From the sequence record NC_100331.1: a DNA stretch of 64,000 nt; one strand, given 5' to 3'. Both the position numbers and the translations under genes were made by a program. The stretch comes from Escherichia phage vB_EcoS_HASG4. This document shows, one piece after another, positions 5,795-7,570 of the stretch. Position 1 is the stretch's first letter; each line of letters starts with the position of its first letter. The notes beneath the pieces are model-generated. The model saw only the letters and a list, made by a program, of their open reading frames with translations. It was not told the origin of the DNA and searched no databases.

Positions 5795-5822
5795 TGACAT
5801 TTTCGCGGGGGTAGTGTAAAGT
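5795..5822 (+). promoter_or_regulatory. candidate sigma70 promoter (TTGACA, then TGTAAAGT) for the plus-strand three-gene cassette
   Basis: TTGACA at 5795-5800 followed 16-17 nt later by an extended -10-like TGTAAAGT. Confidence 0.4.
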
Positions 5823-5884
5823 ATATGTTATGGATGAGTGATCAAAGAGACACACATTTTCTATATACTAGGAGGTGTCAAAAA

Positions 5885-6877
5885 ATGACAGAAGAAGTAG
5901 CTAAGAGTCCTGAGACCGTCGCTAGCGTTGCAGCAGAACTGCACCGTCACGAGGAATCAGATAAGAAAAAGTGGGAGAAGGTCAGAGCCTACGAAGAGAA
6001 ACATCGCGAACACGATGAAGATGAAGAAGATGATGATGATGATGAACATTGTCATAAATATGGAAAACATAAAATGCAAGAACCAGTAAACGTATTTACT
6101 AATGGCTTCCCTGGCCTAATGGGTGGTTACCCAGCAAACGCAGGTGCTTTCGGTGGTGAAGGTATGGGACTATTTGGAGCTATCCTAATTGGTGCTCTAC
6201 TAACAGGCGGATTCGGTGGTTTCGGTGGATTCGGTGGACGTGGTGTAGTTGGTGAAGGTACCGCAGTTGATGCAGTACTTCAGAACCAAGATACCGCTAG
6301 TATTCTAGCAGCTATTAACACTACTCGTACAGAAGCTAACCAGGGTACTGGAGCTGTTTTAAGCGCAGTTAACAATGGTTTTAGCCAGACATCCCAAAAC
6401 CAGAGCCGTGATACTCAGTCTGTACTAACTACGATCTATGGTACAGGTGCTAATCTGTCTAATCAGATCTGCCAGGAAACTCGCAACGTTATTCAGGGTC
6501 AGTTCGATCTTTCTCGCCAGATTGATCAATCTTTCGCAGCTAACCAGATAGCTCGTGCACAAGATAAGTTTGATTCTGCACAGATCGCTTTCCAGCAGAC
6601 TTTACAAACTAATAACCAGTTTGCTGCTGTTCAGGCTCAGATGTGTGCTAACCAGAACTCTCTGGAACGTCAGATTGCTGAATGTTGCTGTGAACTCCAG
6701 ACTGCGATCGCTGGTGTAACTACTGCGCGTATCCAGGATGAGTTAGATGCCTGTCGCCTACGTGAAGCAATCGCTGCGGGTAGCGGTGCTAACGGTCAGG
6801 TAATTAATCAAATCGCTGTAAGTCTTGGTGCTATCACTCAGACTCTGGCTGGTCTGCAGGCTAAACTGCCGGCTTAA
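5885..6877 (+). CDS. low-complexity protein: acidic His/Asp/Glu N-terminus, Gly-rich hydrophobic segment, Gln/Asn/Ser/Thr-rich C-terminal domain
   Basis: Start reassigned to ATG 5885 (AGGAGG 8 nt upstream); codon usage looks highly-expressed; contains GFGGFGGFGG and a CCC cluster. Confidence 0.7.
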   Translation: MTEEVAKSPETVASVAAELHRHEESDKKKWEKVRAYEEKHREHDEDEEDDDDDEHCHKYGKHKMQEPVNVFTNGFPGLMGGYPANAGAFGGEGMGLFGAILIGALLTGGFGGFGGFGGRGVVGEGTAVDAVLQNQDTASILAAINTTRTEANQGTGAVLSAVNNGFSQTSQNQSRDTQSVLTTIYGTGANLSNQICQETRNVIQGQFDLSRQIDQSFAANQIARAQDKFDSAQIAFQQTLQTNNQFAAVQAQMCANQNSLERQIAECCCELQTAIAGVTTARIQDELDACRLREAIAAGSGANGQVINQIAVSLGAITQTLAGLQAKLPA

Positions 6878-6898
6878 AATTAAGGGGAGGAGCCCATT

Positions 6899-7315
6899 AT
6901 GAGTAAATATGGTTTTGTAAACAACGGATTTAATCAACAAATGGGCTCCCAGCAGCCCGTTCCGGGTCTGGATAATCCTTACCTACAACAGTTGCAACAG
7001 CGTTTAGCAGAAGCGCAACAGATGCAGCAACAACTCCAGCAAACCCCTGGAAGTGTGAGTCCTATGCAAATGATGCAGCAAATGAGCGGGCAGTCGCAAA
7101 TGCCTCAACAAATGCAGCAACAGGTGCCTCAGCAGCAAGTTCAGCAACAAACCCAACAACCGCAGGTTTCTGCGGAAGGACAGGCAGTACTAGCCCTTTT
7201 CGAAGATTTCGCAAAGACAGAGGATGGGAAACAGCTTGTATCACTTATGGGTAAGTTTAATAGCTTCTGCCAAAGCCAAGTTGCAAAAGCTCAAAATGGT
7301 GGTAATAACTCCTAA
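6899..7315 (+). CDS. Gln-rich low-complexity protein (138 aa)
   Basis: GGAGG RBS; poly-Q tracts (QQMQQQVPQQQVQQQTQQPQ); same operon as 5885-6877. Confidence 0.7.
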   Translation: MSKYGFVNNGFNQQMGSQQPVPGLDNPYLQQLQQRLAEAQQMQQQLQQTPGSVSPMQMMQQMSGQSQMPQQMQQQVPQQQVQQQTQQPQVSAEGQAVLALFEDFAKTEDGKQLVSLMGKFNSFCQSQVAKAQNGGNNS

Positions 7316-7324
7316 GGAGGAATT

Positions 7325-7519
7325 ATGTGTTGCAGAAAATCTGTTTCGTGCTGCCCAATGCCTGTAGCACGTTGTTGCTCTCCAGCAATGTTTACACAAA
7401 TACCGGCGTTCAATCCCTTTGCCTTTAAGCCTATTCTTATCCTGCCCCCTAGAGTAGATTTTCAGTCAAGATTGGCCTCCCGTATGGGTGGTTGCTGTAA
7501 CAAGAGTATATGGTTCTAA
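7325..7519 (+). CDS. small Cys-rich protein (64 aa) with four CC doublets
   Basis: AGGAGG RBS 4 nt before ATG; MCCRKSVSCCPMP...RCCSP...GGCCNKS. Confidence 0.6.
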   Translation: MCCRKSVSCCPMPVARCCSPAMFTQIPAFNPFAFKPILILPPRVDFQSRLASRMGGCCNKSIWF

Positions 7520-7534
7520 AAACCAGTAATAAAA

Positions 7535-7570
7535 AGCCCCTAGTCGAAAGACTTAGGGGCTTTTCTTTTA
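7535..7570 (+). terminator. rho-independent terminator closing the plus-strand cassette
   Basis: Hairpin AGCCCCTAGTC-GAAA-GACTTAGGGGCT followed by TTTTCTTTT. Confidence 0.7.

What the first reader, a model, noticed from the sequence alone, without database searches (positions are those of the whole stretch)
5795..7570. Antisense three-gene cassette encoding Gly/Gln/Cys-rich low-complexity proteins
Three plus-strand genes with strong SD sequences sit inside an otherwise minus-strand tRNA/early block, between their own TTGACA promoter and a clean terminator. The first has a His/Asp/Glu-acidic N-terminus, a GFGGFGGFGG glycine-zipper-like hydrophobic stretch, a Gln/Asn-rich domain and a CCC cluster. 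The second is poly-Q rich. The third is 64 aa with four CC doublets. I recognise no described phage function with this composition. Codon usage suggests high expression. Possible roles are condensate-forming, membrane/envelope-targeting or metal-binding proteins.
Basis: partly seen in the sequence, partly recalled or inferred. Interest (0 to 1): 0.72.

Follow-up and report, generated by a model that had tools for sequence, protein, structure and literature searches.

The report
Mobile three-gene membrane-protein operon of T5
The three genes are real and are the already annotated but never characterised phage T5 genes T5.077-079: a dispensable, self-contained operon that moves between unrelated phages and encodes a membrane-anchored long coiled-coil protein plus two small partner proteins of unknown function.

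Summary
The window is T5-like phage vB_EcoS_EASG3, and the cassette is T5.077/078/079. It has T5's annotated early promoter (P12/T5P21) and its own terminator.

- **Real genes.** All three are under purifying selection. The 64-aa Cys-rich gene 3 is unannotated in EASG3.
- **Portable and dispensable.** A CRISPRi screen scored all three 'Not Fit' in T5. Tequintavirus Bas33 lacks exactly window 5874-7579, and about half of T5-like phages lack the cassette. The same three genes sit in an N4-like phage, a lambdoid phage and Pseudomonas phage KPP23.
- **Gene 1.** It belongs to a large uncharacterised phage superfamily (PHROGs 8119/9288/16490) found also in crAss-like phages. Members share one Gly-rich hydrophobic segment, a roughly 200-residue helix and a near-universal CCC motif.
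- **HA2 resemblance.** The superfamily profile matches the N-terminal half of influenza HA2 (E=3e-6). The T5 subfamily alone does not, so homology is unproven.
- **No known family fits.** Searches found no spanin, holin, defence or structural family.

My best reading is an early-expressed accessory module acting at the host inner membrane in phage competition or defence evasion. That function is inferred, not shown.

The parts
5794..5822 (+). Sigma-70 type promoter TTGACA-17 bp-TAAAGT (T5 promoter P12 / early promoter T5P21)
   Evidence: Consensus scan gives 10 of 12 matches. T5 records annotate it as a promoter. TTGACA-type promoters also precede g1 in L011, L012 and L013. A remnant of the promoter and leader is retained in Bas33, which lacks the genes.
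5874..7579 (+). Indel unit: the exact 1,706-bp stretch (SD of g1 through terminator 1) that is absent from Tequintavirus Bas33/HildyBeyeler
   Evidence: Three-way alignment of the window, Bas32 and Bas33, with gene tables.
5885..6877 (+). g1 (T5.077 homolog, 330 aa). Layout: N-terminal helix 9-47 and His/acidic linker; Gly-rich hydrophobic segment at about 94-117; helices 135-172 and 177-327; invariant C254 and CCC267-269
   Evidence: ORF and CDS. PHROG 8119. Alignments A1 and A2. AlphaFold2 models. pN/pS 0.34. CAI 0.44.
6899..7315 (+). g2 (T5.078 homolog, 138 aa). 28% Gln in the N-terminal two-thirds; conserved C-terminal motif LALFEDFAKTEDGKQLVSLMGKFNSFCQS with one conserved Cys; no signal peptide
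   Evidence: PHROG 7894. Homologs occur only in this cassette type. Conserved in five distant cassettes. pN/pS 0.16.
7325..7519 (+). g3 (T5.079 homolog, 64 aa). Starts MCC, has four CC doublets, is Pro/Phe-rich and ends in WF. It is not annotated in EASG3 and has no PHROG.
   Evidence: tblastn finds it in 220 records. pN/pS is 0.40 in frame against 0.89 and 1.63 off frame. An MCC/MCGCC-initiated ORF with an SD follows g2 in L008 and L011-L014 and in KPP23 as ORF072.
7532..7564 (+). Rho-independent terminator of the cassette (GC-rich hairpin followed by TTTTCTTTT)
   Evidence: RNA fold. Annotated as a terminator in EASG3 and T5.
7582..7621 (-). Second hairpin: terminator of the convergent SPFH gene. 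It is not part of the indel unit and carries GCGC (7592-7595), matching T5's major nick site 3.

Best explanation
This is a portable accessory operon of the 'moron' type. It is not part of T5's core replication, lysis or virion programme.

Shown:
- It has its own sigma-70 promoter and terminator.
- All three genes are under purifying selection.
- It is dispensable for T5 growth.
- It is present in only about half of T5-like phages, as a clean indel.
- It occurs in unrelated phage backbones, and the g1 tree cuts across phage families.

Inferred mechanism:
1. Host RNA polymerase transcribes the operon early.
2. g1 inserts into the inner membrane through its single Gly-zipper-like hydrophobic segment and oligomerises through a 150-190-residue coiled coil that carries the invariant CCC motif.
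3. In the T5-type proteins the roughly 90-residue charged, His-rich N-domain cannot plausibly be exported. It therefore stays in the cytoplasm and the coiled coil projects into the periplasm.
4. g2 (Gln-rich) and g3 (Cys/Pro-rich) have no export signals. The confirmed pairings all involve g1 proteins that carry this N-domain, so they probably bind it on the cytoplasmic face, possibly through His/Cys-coordinated metal.
5. The complex alters the envelope to the phage's advantage against competitors or host immunity, for example by superinfection exclusion or by blocking a membrane-acting defence. This benefit does not show in a defence-poor laboratory host.
For: Own signals:
- Promoter and terminator.

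Selection:
- pN/pS is 0.16-0.40 for all three genes.

Dispensable:
- T5.077, T5.078 and T5.079 are all 'Not Fit' in the transcriptome-wide CRISPRi-ART screen (PMC11879866 supplement).

Polymorphic:
- Bas33 lacks window 5874-7579 exactly, while its close relative Bas32 has the genes between the same SPFH and Toprim genes.
- g1 is in 221 records, against about 436 T5-like records that carry the flanking SPFH gene at 80% identity or more.

Mobile:
- The same g1-g2-g3 order occurs next to the virion RNA polymerase gene of an N4-like phage (L008).
- It also occurs between the Q antiterminator and the holin of a lambdoid phage, on the opposite strand (L013).
- It also occurs in KPP23-like Pseudomonas phages (L014, L041).
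- The N4-like g1 is 67-73% identical to g1 of the T5-like contigs L011 and L012, but only 43% identical to the EASG3 g1.
- Cassette GC is 45-47%, against 39% for the window.

Neighbourhood:
- The adjacent T5.076 is listed as an anti-retron gene.

Membrane and coiled coil:
- One hydrophobic Gly-rich segment is conserved in 171 homologs, and CCC occurs in 92% of them.
- AlphaFold2 gives a continuous helix 177-327 with pLDDT 78-90.

Partner link:
- g2 homologs occur only in this cassette type.
- A distant g1 homolog with an N-domain (P0118) is followed by a Gln-rich ORF carrying the NPYLMQL motif.
- In the two crAss/Bacteroides loci whose downstream ORFs were read (L009, L010), g1 lacks the N-domain and different genes follow it.
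Against: - No homology to any known superinfection-exclusion, anti-defence or defence protein.
- No experiment shows membrane localisation, complex formation or any phenotype.
- Topology is unresolved. In the short-N-tail subfamilies the N-flank has almost no Lys/Arg and the conserved Arg lies on the C side, which by the positive-inside rule would put the coiled coil in the cytoplasm.
- In crAss-like phages the g1-type gene sits at a conserved position in the late structural block. That fits an assembly or lysis role better than an early accessory role.
- The cassette is essentially absent from 185,579 bacterial and archaeal species genomes and from 5,426 E. coli genomes. So it is not a common lysogenic-conversion module.
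- Part of the GC difference may simply reflect Gly/Ala-rich coding.
Confidence: 0.42

Rival explanations
1. Lysis-stage membrane fusogen. g1-family proteins would work like spanins or class I viral fusion proteins. A Gly-rich fusion-peptide-like segment at one end and, in crAss-type members, an aromatic/Cys-rich tail at the other are joined by a coiled coil that folds back to fuse or rupture the envelope membranes. In T5-type cassettes the tail would have become the separate gene g3.
For: - The superfamily profile matches influenza HA2 residues 2-92 (fusion peptide plus following helices) at E=3e-6 and 30 bits. None of 500 whole-sequence shuffles and none of 500 segment-wise shuffles reached that score; the maximum was 19.8.
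- crAss-like members are annotated 'spike protein/glycoprotein'.
- In cr116_1 the gene lies about 1.1 kb downstream of the holin and endolysin.
- crAss-type proteins carry a Pro-rich then Gly/aromatic/Cys tail ending in FW[GN]. T5-type g1 stops at 'LQAKLPA', where that tail begins, and g3 is Pro/Phe/Cys-rich and ends in WF.
Against: - T5-like phages are reported to have holin, endolysin and Rz-like two-component spanins in a separate lysis cassette (PMC4342426, PMC11664485).
- The lambdoid carrier L013 has its own Phage_lysis (Rz) gene.
- g3 has no signal peptide or lipobox, and g1 has no second membrane anchor.
- The cassette has an early-type sigma-70 promoter.
- The T5-subfamily profile alone does not hit HA2, H3 HA2 scores only 14.8 bits, and hhalign against a single HA2 sequence is negative.
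- Knock-down has no fitness effect, although spanins can also be dispensable in the laboratory.
Confidence: 0.17
2. Virion or assembly protein. The g1 family would be a coiled-coil head-assembly, scaffold or fibre component, and the T5 copy a variant of it.
For: - In crAss-like phages the gene holds a fixed place after the small terminase/HTH gene and before the capsid genes.
- In a myovirus contig it lies between the capsid and connector genes.
- Some records name it 'outer capsid protein/viral fiber'.
- The long helix is typical of scaffolds and fibres.
Against: - In T5-likes it lies in the early tRNA region under an early promoter, far from the morphogenesis genes.
- It is absent from half of T5-like phages and from Bas33 and is non-essential.
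- A conserved hydrophobic Gly-rich segment and a CCC motif are not scaffold features.
- The limited AKFV33 virion proteome lists only four major proteins, none of them this one.
Confidence: 0.1
3. Cytoplasmic metal- or redox-handling complex, or a Gln-rich condensate tethered to the membrane. His-rich g1 N-domain, the CCC motif, Cys-rich g3 and the single conserved Cys of g2 would bind metal (Zn, Ni, Cu or Fe) or form a thiol network. The poly-Q protein g2 would drive clustering.
For: - The g1 N-domain has 7 His in 66 residues, and runs such as HHYHHHHHEH occur in Salmonella-phage variants.
- g1 has invariant C254 and C267-269.
- g3 has 8 Cys in 64 residues and always starts MCC.
- g2 keeps one Cys in FCQS in all cassettes and is 28% Gln.
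- g2 and g3 lack export signals.
Against: - This rests on composition only. CC doublets are not a recognised metal-site signature in bacteria.
- There is no match to any metal-binding family.
- The His-rich stretch is poorly conserved outside the T5 group.
- The idea gives no reason why such a module would be mobile among phages.
Confidence: 0.12

Closest known systems
Phage morons / accessory cassettes (for example lambda bor and lom, the stx region between Q and S in lambdoid phages, T4 imm/sp, T5 llp)
   Same: - It has its own promoter and terminator.
- Its orientation opposes its neighbours.
- Its GC content is atypical.
- It is present or absent among close relatives.
- It is dispensable and encodes a membrane-directed product.
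- In L013 it sits between Q and the holin, which from general knowledge is the classic lambdoid moron site.
   Different: - It has three co-transcribed genes with no homology to any known moron product.
- It is carried mainly by virulent phages and is almost absent from bacterial genomes.
- No exclusion or conversion phenotype is known.
Two-component spanins (lambda Rz/Rz1)
   Same: A membrane-anchored protein with a long helical, Cys-bearing domain is paired with a small Pro-rich, Cys-bearing protein encoded just downstream.
   Different: - g3 has no lipoprotein signal.
- A Gln-rich third protein intervenes.
- The cassette lies outside the lysis cassette and is driven by an early promoter.
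- T5-likes already encode Rz-like spanins.
- g1, at 330 aa, is about twice the size of Rz (about 150 aa, from general knowledge).
Class I viral fusion proteins (influenza HA2)
   Same: - A Gly-rich hydrophobic peptide (GLFGAI... in both) is followed directly by a polar heptad-repeat helix.
- There is a Cys cluster.
- The superfamily profile scores 30 bits (E=3e-6) against HA2 residues 2-92.
   Different: - No C-terminal transmembrane anchor.
- No receptor-binding subunit or cleavage site.
- The hydrophobic segment is preceded by 20-95 residues.
- The match is not reproduced by the T5 subfamily alone or by hhalign. Similarity may be convergent architecture.
crAss-like phage 'spike protein/glycoprotein' and 'outer capsid protein/viral fiber' genes (PHROG 16490; for example cr116_1 gp022)
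   Same: They are true sequence relatives of g1 (profile E down to 1e-29). They share the hydrophobic segment, the helix and the CCC motif.
   Different: - They lack the charged N-domain; the two loci read in detail (L009, L010) have no g2/g3 partners.
- They carry a C-terminal Gly/aromatic/Cys tail.
- They lie in the late structural block.
- Their names are automated labels, not tested functions.

Membership tests
Phage moron / mobile accessory cassette | Autonomous promoter and terminator flanking the genes | tested here: met
   TTGACA-17-TAAAGT at 5794-5822 and a hairpin plus T-run at 7532-7564. T5 records annotate both.
Phage moron / mobile accessory cassette | Present or absent at the same locus in close relatives | tested here: met
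   Bas33 lacks window 5874-7579 while Bas32 has it. g1 is in 221 records, against about 436 with the flanking SPFH gene.
Phage moron / mobile accessory cassette | Found in unrelated phage backbones, with a gene tree that disagrees with the phage tree | tested here: met
   N4-like, lambdoid, KPP23-like and T5-like carriers. Identity matrix.
Phage moron / mobile accessory cassette | Dispensable for lytic growth | tested here: met
   Taken from the literature rather than from my own experiment: CRISPRi-ART scores T5.077-079 'Not Fit'. The natural deletion in Bas33 agrees.
Two-component spanin (Rz/Rz1) | Outer-membrane subunit is a lipoprotein with a signal peptide and lipobox Cys | tested here: not met
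   g3 begins MCCRKSVSCC with no hydrophobic signal region, and so do all five orthologues.
Two-component spanin (Rz/Rz1) | Inner-membrane subunit is N-in/C-out with a periplasmic coiled coil | tested here: inconclusive
   The hydrophobic segment and long helix are present. Topology was not determined, and the charge distribution is ambiguous across subfamilies.
Two-component spanin (Rz/Rz1) | Encoded in or next to the lysis cassette and expressed late | tested here: not met
   The cassette lies in the tRNA/early block behind an early promoter. T5-like spanins are reported elsewhere, beside the holin and endolysin.
Class I viral fusion protein (HA2-like) | Gly-rich fusion peptide directly followed by a heptad-repeat helix, with detectable sequence relationship | tested here: inconclusive
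   Superfamily profile A3 against PDB hits HA2 residues 2-92 at E=3e-6, and none of 1000 shuffles reach that score. T5-type profile A2 gives no hit, hhalign is negative, and single-sequence g1 gives no hit.
Class I viral fusion protein (HA2-like) | C-terminal transmembrane anchor | tested here: not met
   The hydropathy scan returns only the single most hydrophobic window per protein, at g1 residues 94-110. By direct reading of the sequence, the polar Gln/Asn/Ala-rich helix 127-330 (46 Q/N of 204) has no comparable hydrophobic stretch.
Class I viral fusion protein (HA2-like) | Trimeric helical hairpin (post-fusion six-helix bundle) | not testable with these tools
   Only monomer AlphaFold2 was available. 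It gives an extended helix with pTM 0.29. Foldseek found only vimentin at E=3.5.
Holins (including T4 T-type class III) | Match to a holin family model | tested here: not met
   No holin family appears among the Pfam, PHROG or NCBIfam results for g1 or its relatives.
Known anti-phage defence systems | Match to a PADLOC model | tested here: not met
   No PADLOC hits at E<=1 for g1, g2, g3 or four relatives.
Superinfection-exclusion proteins (Imm, Sp, SieA, Llp, Cor) | Blocks entry of a second phage | not testable with these tools
   This needs infection assays. No sequence similarity to these proteins was found.

The most novel reading that the evidence does not exclude
g1 and its more than 1,400 relatives in T5-like, N4-like, lambdoid, Pseudomonas, crAss-like and Methanomassiliicoccales viruses would be a prokaryotic-virus branch, or an independent re-invention, of the class I fusion-protein design: a fusion-peptide-like Gly-rich segment, a heptad helix and a Cys cluster. 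They would actively remodel or fuse host membranes. The T5-type operon would be a split, regulated version in which g2 and g3 control the fusogen from the cytoplasm.
Probability: 0.15. Interest if true: 0.88.

Novelty: new variant of a known kind. Interest (0 to 1): 0.58.

Why it matters
T5 is a model phage, yet these three conserved genes have no assigned role. The analysis turns them from 'three odd ORFs' into a defined mobile unit with exact boundaries (window 5874-7579).

It also supplies natural isogenic-like controls (Bas32 with the cassette, Bas33 without) and cultured carriers in two host genera (T5 and EASG3 in E. coli, KPP23 in Pseudomonas).

It links the cassette to a very large uncharacterised protein superfamily that includes crAss-like phages, which the literature describes as the most abundant viruses of the human gut (PMC10172136 abstract).

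- If the module acts in phage-phage competition or defence evasion, it adds a new membrane-based mechanism.
- If the HA2-like resemblance reflects function, it would be the first fusion-protein-like machinery of this design in phages.

Tried and rejected
Searches that found no recognised family:
- Pfam, NCBIfam and PADLOC on all three proteins and on distant relatives gave nothing above noise.
- PHROGs gave only 'unknown function' families.
- PDB sequence search with g1 alone and with the T5-type profile found nothing.
- Foldseek of the better AlphaFold2 model returned only vimentin at E=3.5.
- The first AlphaFold2 model, from a 16-sequence alignment, was too poor to use (pLDDT 51).

The 'missing T5 spanin' idea was rejected. 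T5-like phages are reported to have Rz-like spanins, and g3 has no lipobox.

Searches for a common prophage module:
- The genome-contig scan gave one weak hit in 185,579 species genomes. The first attempt with alignment A1 failed for lack of conserved words.
- There was no match in 5,426 E. coli genomes.

Literature:
- Full-text search for T5.077, T5.078 and T5.079 found no paper. Only supplementary tables mention them.
- The Bas33 RNA-seq dataset could not give expression data, because Bas33 turned out to lack the cassette.
- The phiR2-01 and AKFV33 proteome papers gave no information on these proteins.

hhalign of the superfamily against one H3 HA2 sequence was negative, so I do not claim homology to HA2.
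Full report
**What is there**

The window is 100% identical to Escherichia phage vB_EcoS_EASG3, a Tequintavirus. Between the minus-strand Toprim gene (5100-5669) and the minus-strand SPFH/Band-7 gene (7640-8587) lie three plus-strand ORFs:
- g1, 5885-6877 (330 aa);
- g2, 6899-7315 (138 aa);
- g3, 7325-7519 (64 aa).

Each follows a strong Shine-Dalgarno sequence. Fourteen tRNA genes and all other genes in the first 13 kb or so are on the minus strand.

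A TTGACA-17-TAAAGT promoter sits at 5794-5822. A GC hairpin plus T-run at 7532-7564 is followed by a second hairpin at 7582-7621 that serves the convergent SPFH gene. Together they fold at -43 kcal/mol, z = -6.3.

In phage T5 the same genes are T5.077, T5.078 and T5.079. They are annotated with 'promoter P12' (or 'early promoter T5P21') and an 'efficient bidirectional rho-independent terminator'. So the feature is already annotated, though only as hypothetical proteins. One T5 record splits g1 into two ORFs and calls g2 a 'cAMP-dependent protein kinase catalytic subunit'. No domain search supports that name.

EASG3 does not annotate g3 at all.

**Are the genes real?**

Yes.
- tblastn finds g1 in 221 phage records and g3 in 220.
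- Across 20 T5-like loci, pN/pS is 0.34 for g1, 0.16 for g2 and 0.40 for g3. For g3 the two wrong frames give 0.89 and 1.63.
- In five cassettes whose g1 is only 43-48% identical to EASG3, g2 is followed by a small ORF with its own SD. It always starts MCC (once MCGCC), carries further CC doublets and is Pro/Phe-rich.
- Pseudomonas phage KPP23 annotates the same trio as ORF074, ORF073 and ORF072.

The codon-usage claim holds only for g1: CAI 0.44, fifth of 59 window ORFs. g2 scores 0.26 and g3 0.21.

**The cassette is a dispensable, mobile unit**

A transcriptome-wide CRISPRi-ART screen of T5 scored T5.077, T5.078 and T5.079 'Not Fit', and its manual re-annotation lists them as unknown (PMC11879866 supplement).

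Tequintavirus Bas33 (HildyBeyeler) has SPFH and Toprim only 287 bp apart, whereas Bas32 (IrisVonRoten) has the three genes between them. Alignment shows that Bas33 lacks window 5874-7579 exactly, from the g1 SD to just past terminator 1. It keeps a recognisable promoter and leader remnant, which points to loss rather than non-acquisition.

Only 221 records carry g1, against about 436 records that carry the flanking SPFH gene at 80% identity or more.

The same three-gene order, each with a sigma-70-like promoter, occurs in several unrelated backbones:
- an N4-like contig beside the virion RNA polymerase gene (L008);
- a lambdoid contig between the Q antiterminator and the holin-lysozyme-Rz genes, on the opposite strand (L013);
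- KPP23-like Pseudomonas phages (L014, L041);
- two other T5-like contigs, inside their tRNA blocks (L011, L012).

The N4-like g1 is 67-73% identical to those of L011 and L012 but only 43% identical to EASG3's, so the gene tree cuts across phage families. Cassette GC is 45-47%, against 39% for the window.

The cassette is almost absent from 185,579 bacterial and archaeal species genomes and from 5,426 complete E. coli genomes. It travels mainly among virulent phages.

**What g1 is**

No Pfam, NCBIfam or PADLOC family matches.

A profile search of 1.84 billion representatives found 524 clusters at E<=1e-3. A second profile search found at least 1,401 proteins at E<=1e-5, all of them hypothetical. 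The superfamily spans PHROGs 8119, 9288 and 16490, all 'unknown function'.

It includes many crAss-like phages, a cultured Bacteroides phage and viruses assigned to Methanomassiliicoccales. Automated labels there read 'spike protein/glycoprotein' or 'outer capsid protein/viral fiber'.

Shared features of the superfamily:
- One Gly-rich hydrophobic segment, at median position 45.
- A flank on the N side almost free of Lys/Arg.
- A conserved GGRG after the segment.
- About 200 helical residues.
- A CCC motif in 92% of members.

AlphaFold2 with a 62-sequence alignment (pLDDT 68.7) gives the following for the window protein:
- a confident N-terminal helix 9-47 (pLDDT above 90);
- a disordered acidic and Gly-rich stretch 52-126;
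- helices 135-172 and 177-327 (pLDDT 78-90).

Foldseek finds nothing meaningful.

The T5-type subfamily alone has the roughly 90-residue His/acidic N-domain. crAss-type members instead carry a C-terminal Pro-rich then Gly/aromatic/Cys tail ending in FW[GN] or CGCGC. T5-type g1 ends at 'LQAKLPA', where that tail would begin, and g3 resembles a detached tail in composition. That last point is resemblance, not demonstrated homology.

**The HA2 resemblance**

The 62-sequence superfamily profile hits influenza HA2 in the PDB at E=3e-6 (30 bits). It aligns the hydrophobic segment with the fusion peptide and the following polar helix with HA2 residues up to 92.

None of 500 whole-sequence shuffles (mean -1.6, sd 2.5) and none of 500 segment-wise shuffles (mean 0.45, sd 3.7, maximum 19.8) reach 30 bits. 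So residue order matters, not just composition.

Several results weaken the link:
- H3 HA2 scores only 14.8 bits.
- hhalign against a single HA2 sequence is negative.
- The T5-type profile alone finds no HA2.
- g1 alone finds none either.
- All the hits belong to one protein family, so they count as one observation.

I read this as a shared architecture: a Gly-rich membrane-active peptide followed directly by a heptad helix. Homology is unproven. g1 also lacks a C-terminal membrane anchor.

**g2 and g3**

g2 homologs exist only in this cassette type. Its Gln-rich part varies. A C-terminal motif (LFEEFAxTEDGKQLVSxxGKFNSFCQS) with one Cys is conserved in all cassettes.

Neither g2 nor g3 has a signal peptide.

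A distant g1 homolog that also has a charged, His-rich N-domain (P0118) is followed by a Gln-rich ORF beginning with an NPYLMQL motif like that of g2. In the two crAss/Bacteroides loci whose downstream ORFs were read (L009, L010), which lack the N-domain, quite different genes follow g1. This co-occurrence is the basis for proposing that g2 and g3 act on the cytoplasmic N-domain.

**Mechanism**

The shown and inferred steps, and the functions they point to, are set out under the best explanation; I hold that model at 0.42. Two points of local context add to it. The adjacent T5.076 is listed as an anti-retron gene. The surrounding region is a tRNA block.

**Rivals**

- **Lysis-stage fusogen (0.17).** The HA2-like pattern, the two-ended crAss-type proteins and the proximity to lysis genes in cr116_1 favour it. 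Against it: T5-likes and L013 already encode Rz-type spanins, g3 has no lipobox, and the promoter is of the early type.
- **Virion or assembly role (0.10).** The fixed position in the crAss late block favours it. T5 genomic context, dispensability and the polymorphism count against it.
- **Metal/thiol or condensate complex (0.12).** This rests on composition only.

**Novelty and verdict**

The ORFs are known annotations, so the cassette itself is not a discovery. New here are:
- the exact mobile unit;
- its spread across Demerecviridae, N4-like, lambdoid and Pseudomonas phages;
- the reality of g3;
- the size and reach of the g1 superfamily;
- the reproducible but limited HA2-like signal.

I class it as a new variant of a known kind (a phage accessory operon) built from an uncharacterised protein family, with interest 0.58.

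Noticed in passing
window 5100-5669 (-): The Toprim-domain protein next to the cassette is the T5.076 homolog. The CRISPRi-ART re-annotation of T5 lists it as 'anti-defense: subverts retron-mediated defense' and scores it Semi-Fit.
   Followed up: partly
window 7582-7621, GCGC at 7592-7595: The second hairpin, which terminates the SPFH gene, corresponds to T5's annotated 'major single-stranded nick 3, 32.6%' site. Bas33 retains it although it lacks the cassette.
   Followed up: partly
window 7640-8587 (-): The SPFH/Band-7 protein (T5.080; PHROG 200, labelled 'lipoprotein') has 60-78% identical relatives in large Klebsiella, Enterobacter, Cronobacter, Citrobacter and Aeromonas phages of 140-180 kb. 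It is therefore shared well beyond T5-like phages.
   Followed up: no
window 9198-9271 (-): ARAGORN calls a tRNA-Ser with the unusual anticodon ACT. T5 annotates this stretch as 'RNAX, stable RNA with unknown functions'.
   Followed up: no
L008 5278-5675: In the N4-like contig three minus-strand tRNA genes (Asn, Gln, Tyr) lie directly upstream of the plus-strand cassette. This mirrors the T5 arrangement and suggests tRNAs and cassette may have moved together.
   Followed up: no
L003, L004, L038-L040: The crAss-like contigs that carry g1 relatives do not translate to the recorded protein with the standard code ('translates_to_query: no'). This indicates stop-codon recoding.
   Followed up: no
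L009 6658-8227; L010 6683-8955; L038 8919-10835: In crAss-like and Bacteroides phages the g1-type gene is followed by a conserved run of small genes of about 112-180, 168-177, 65-77 and 131-139 aa. The last is DUF7841/PolyVal-metallopeptidase-like. All are of unknown function.
   Followed up: partly
L005 7263-7918: In a myovirus contig the g1-type gene is preceded by a Gln-rich 128-aa protein and an 89-aa protein that, read by eye, looks HTH/sigma-region-4-like. PHROGs found no match for either. The Gln-rich one may be a distant counterpart of g2.
   Followed up: no
window 35935-36702 (+): This 255-aa ORF has by far the highest E. coli codon adaptation index in the window (0.72, against a median of 0.26).
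   Followed up: no
window 4199-4882 (-): An HNH endonuclease with a LuxR-type HTH (T5 hegA homolog) is embedded among the tRNA genes.
   Followed up: no
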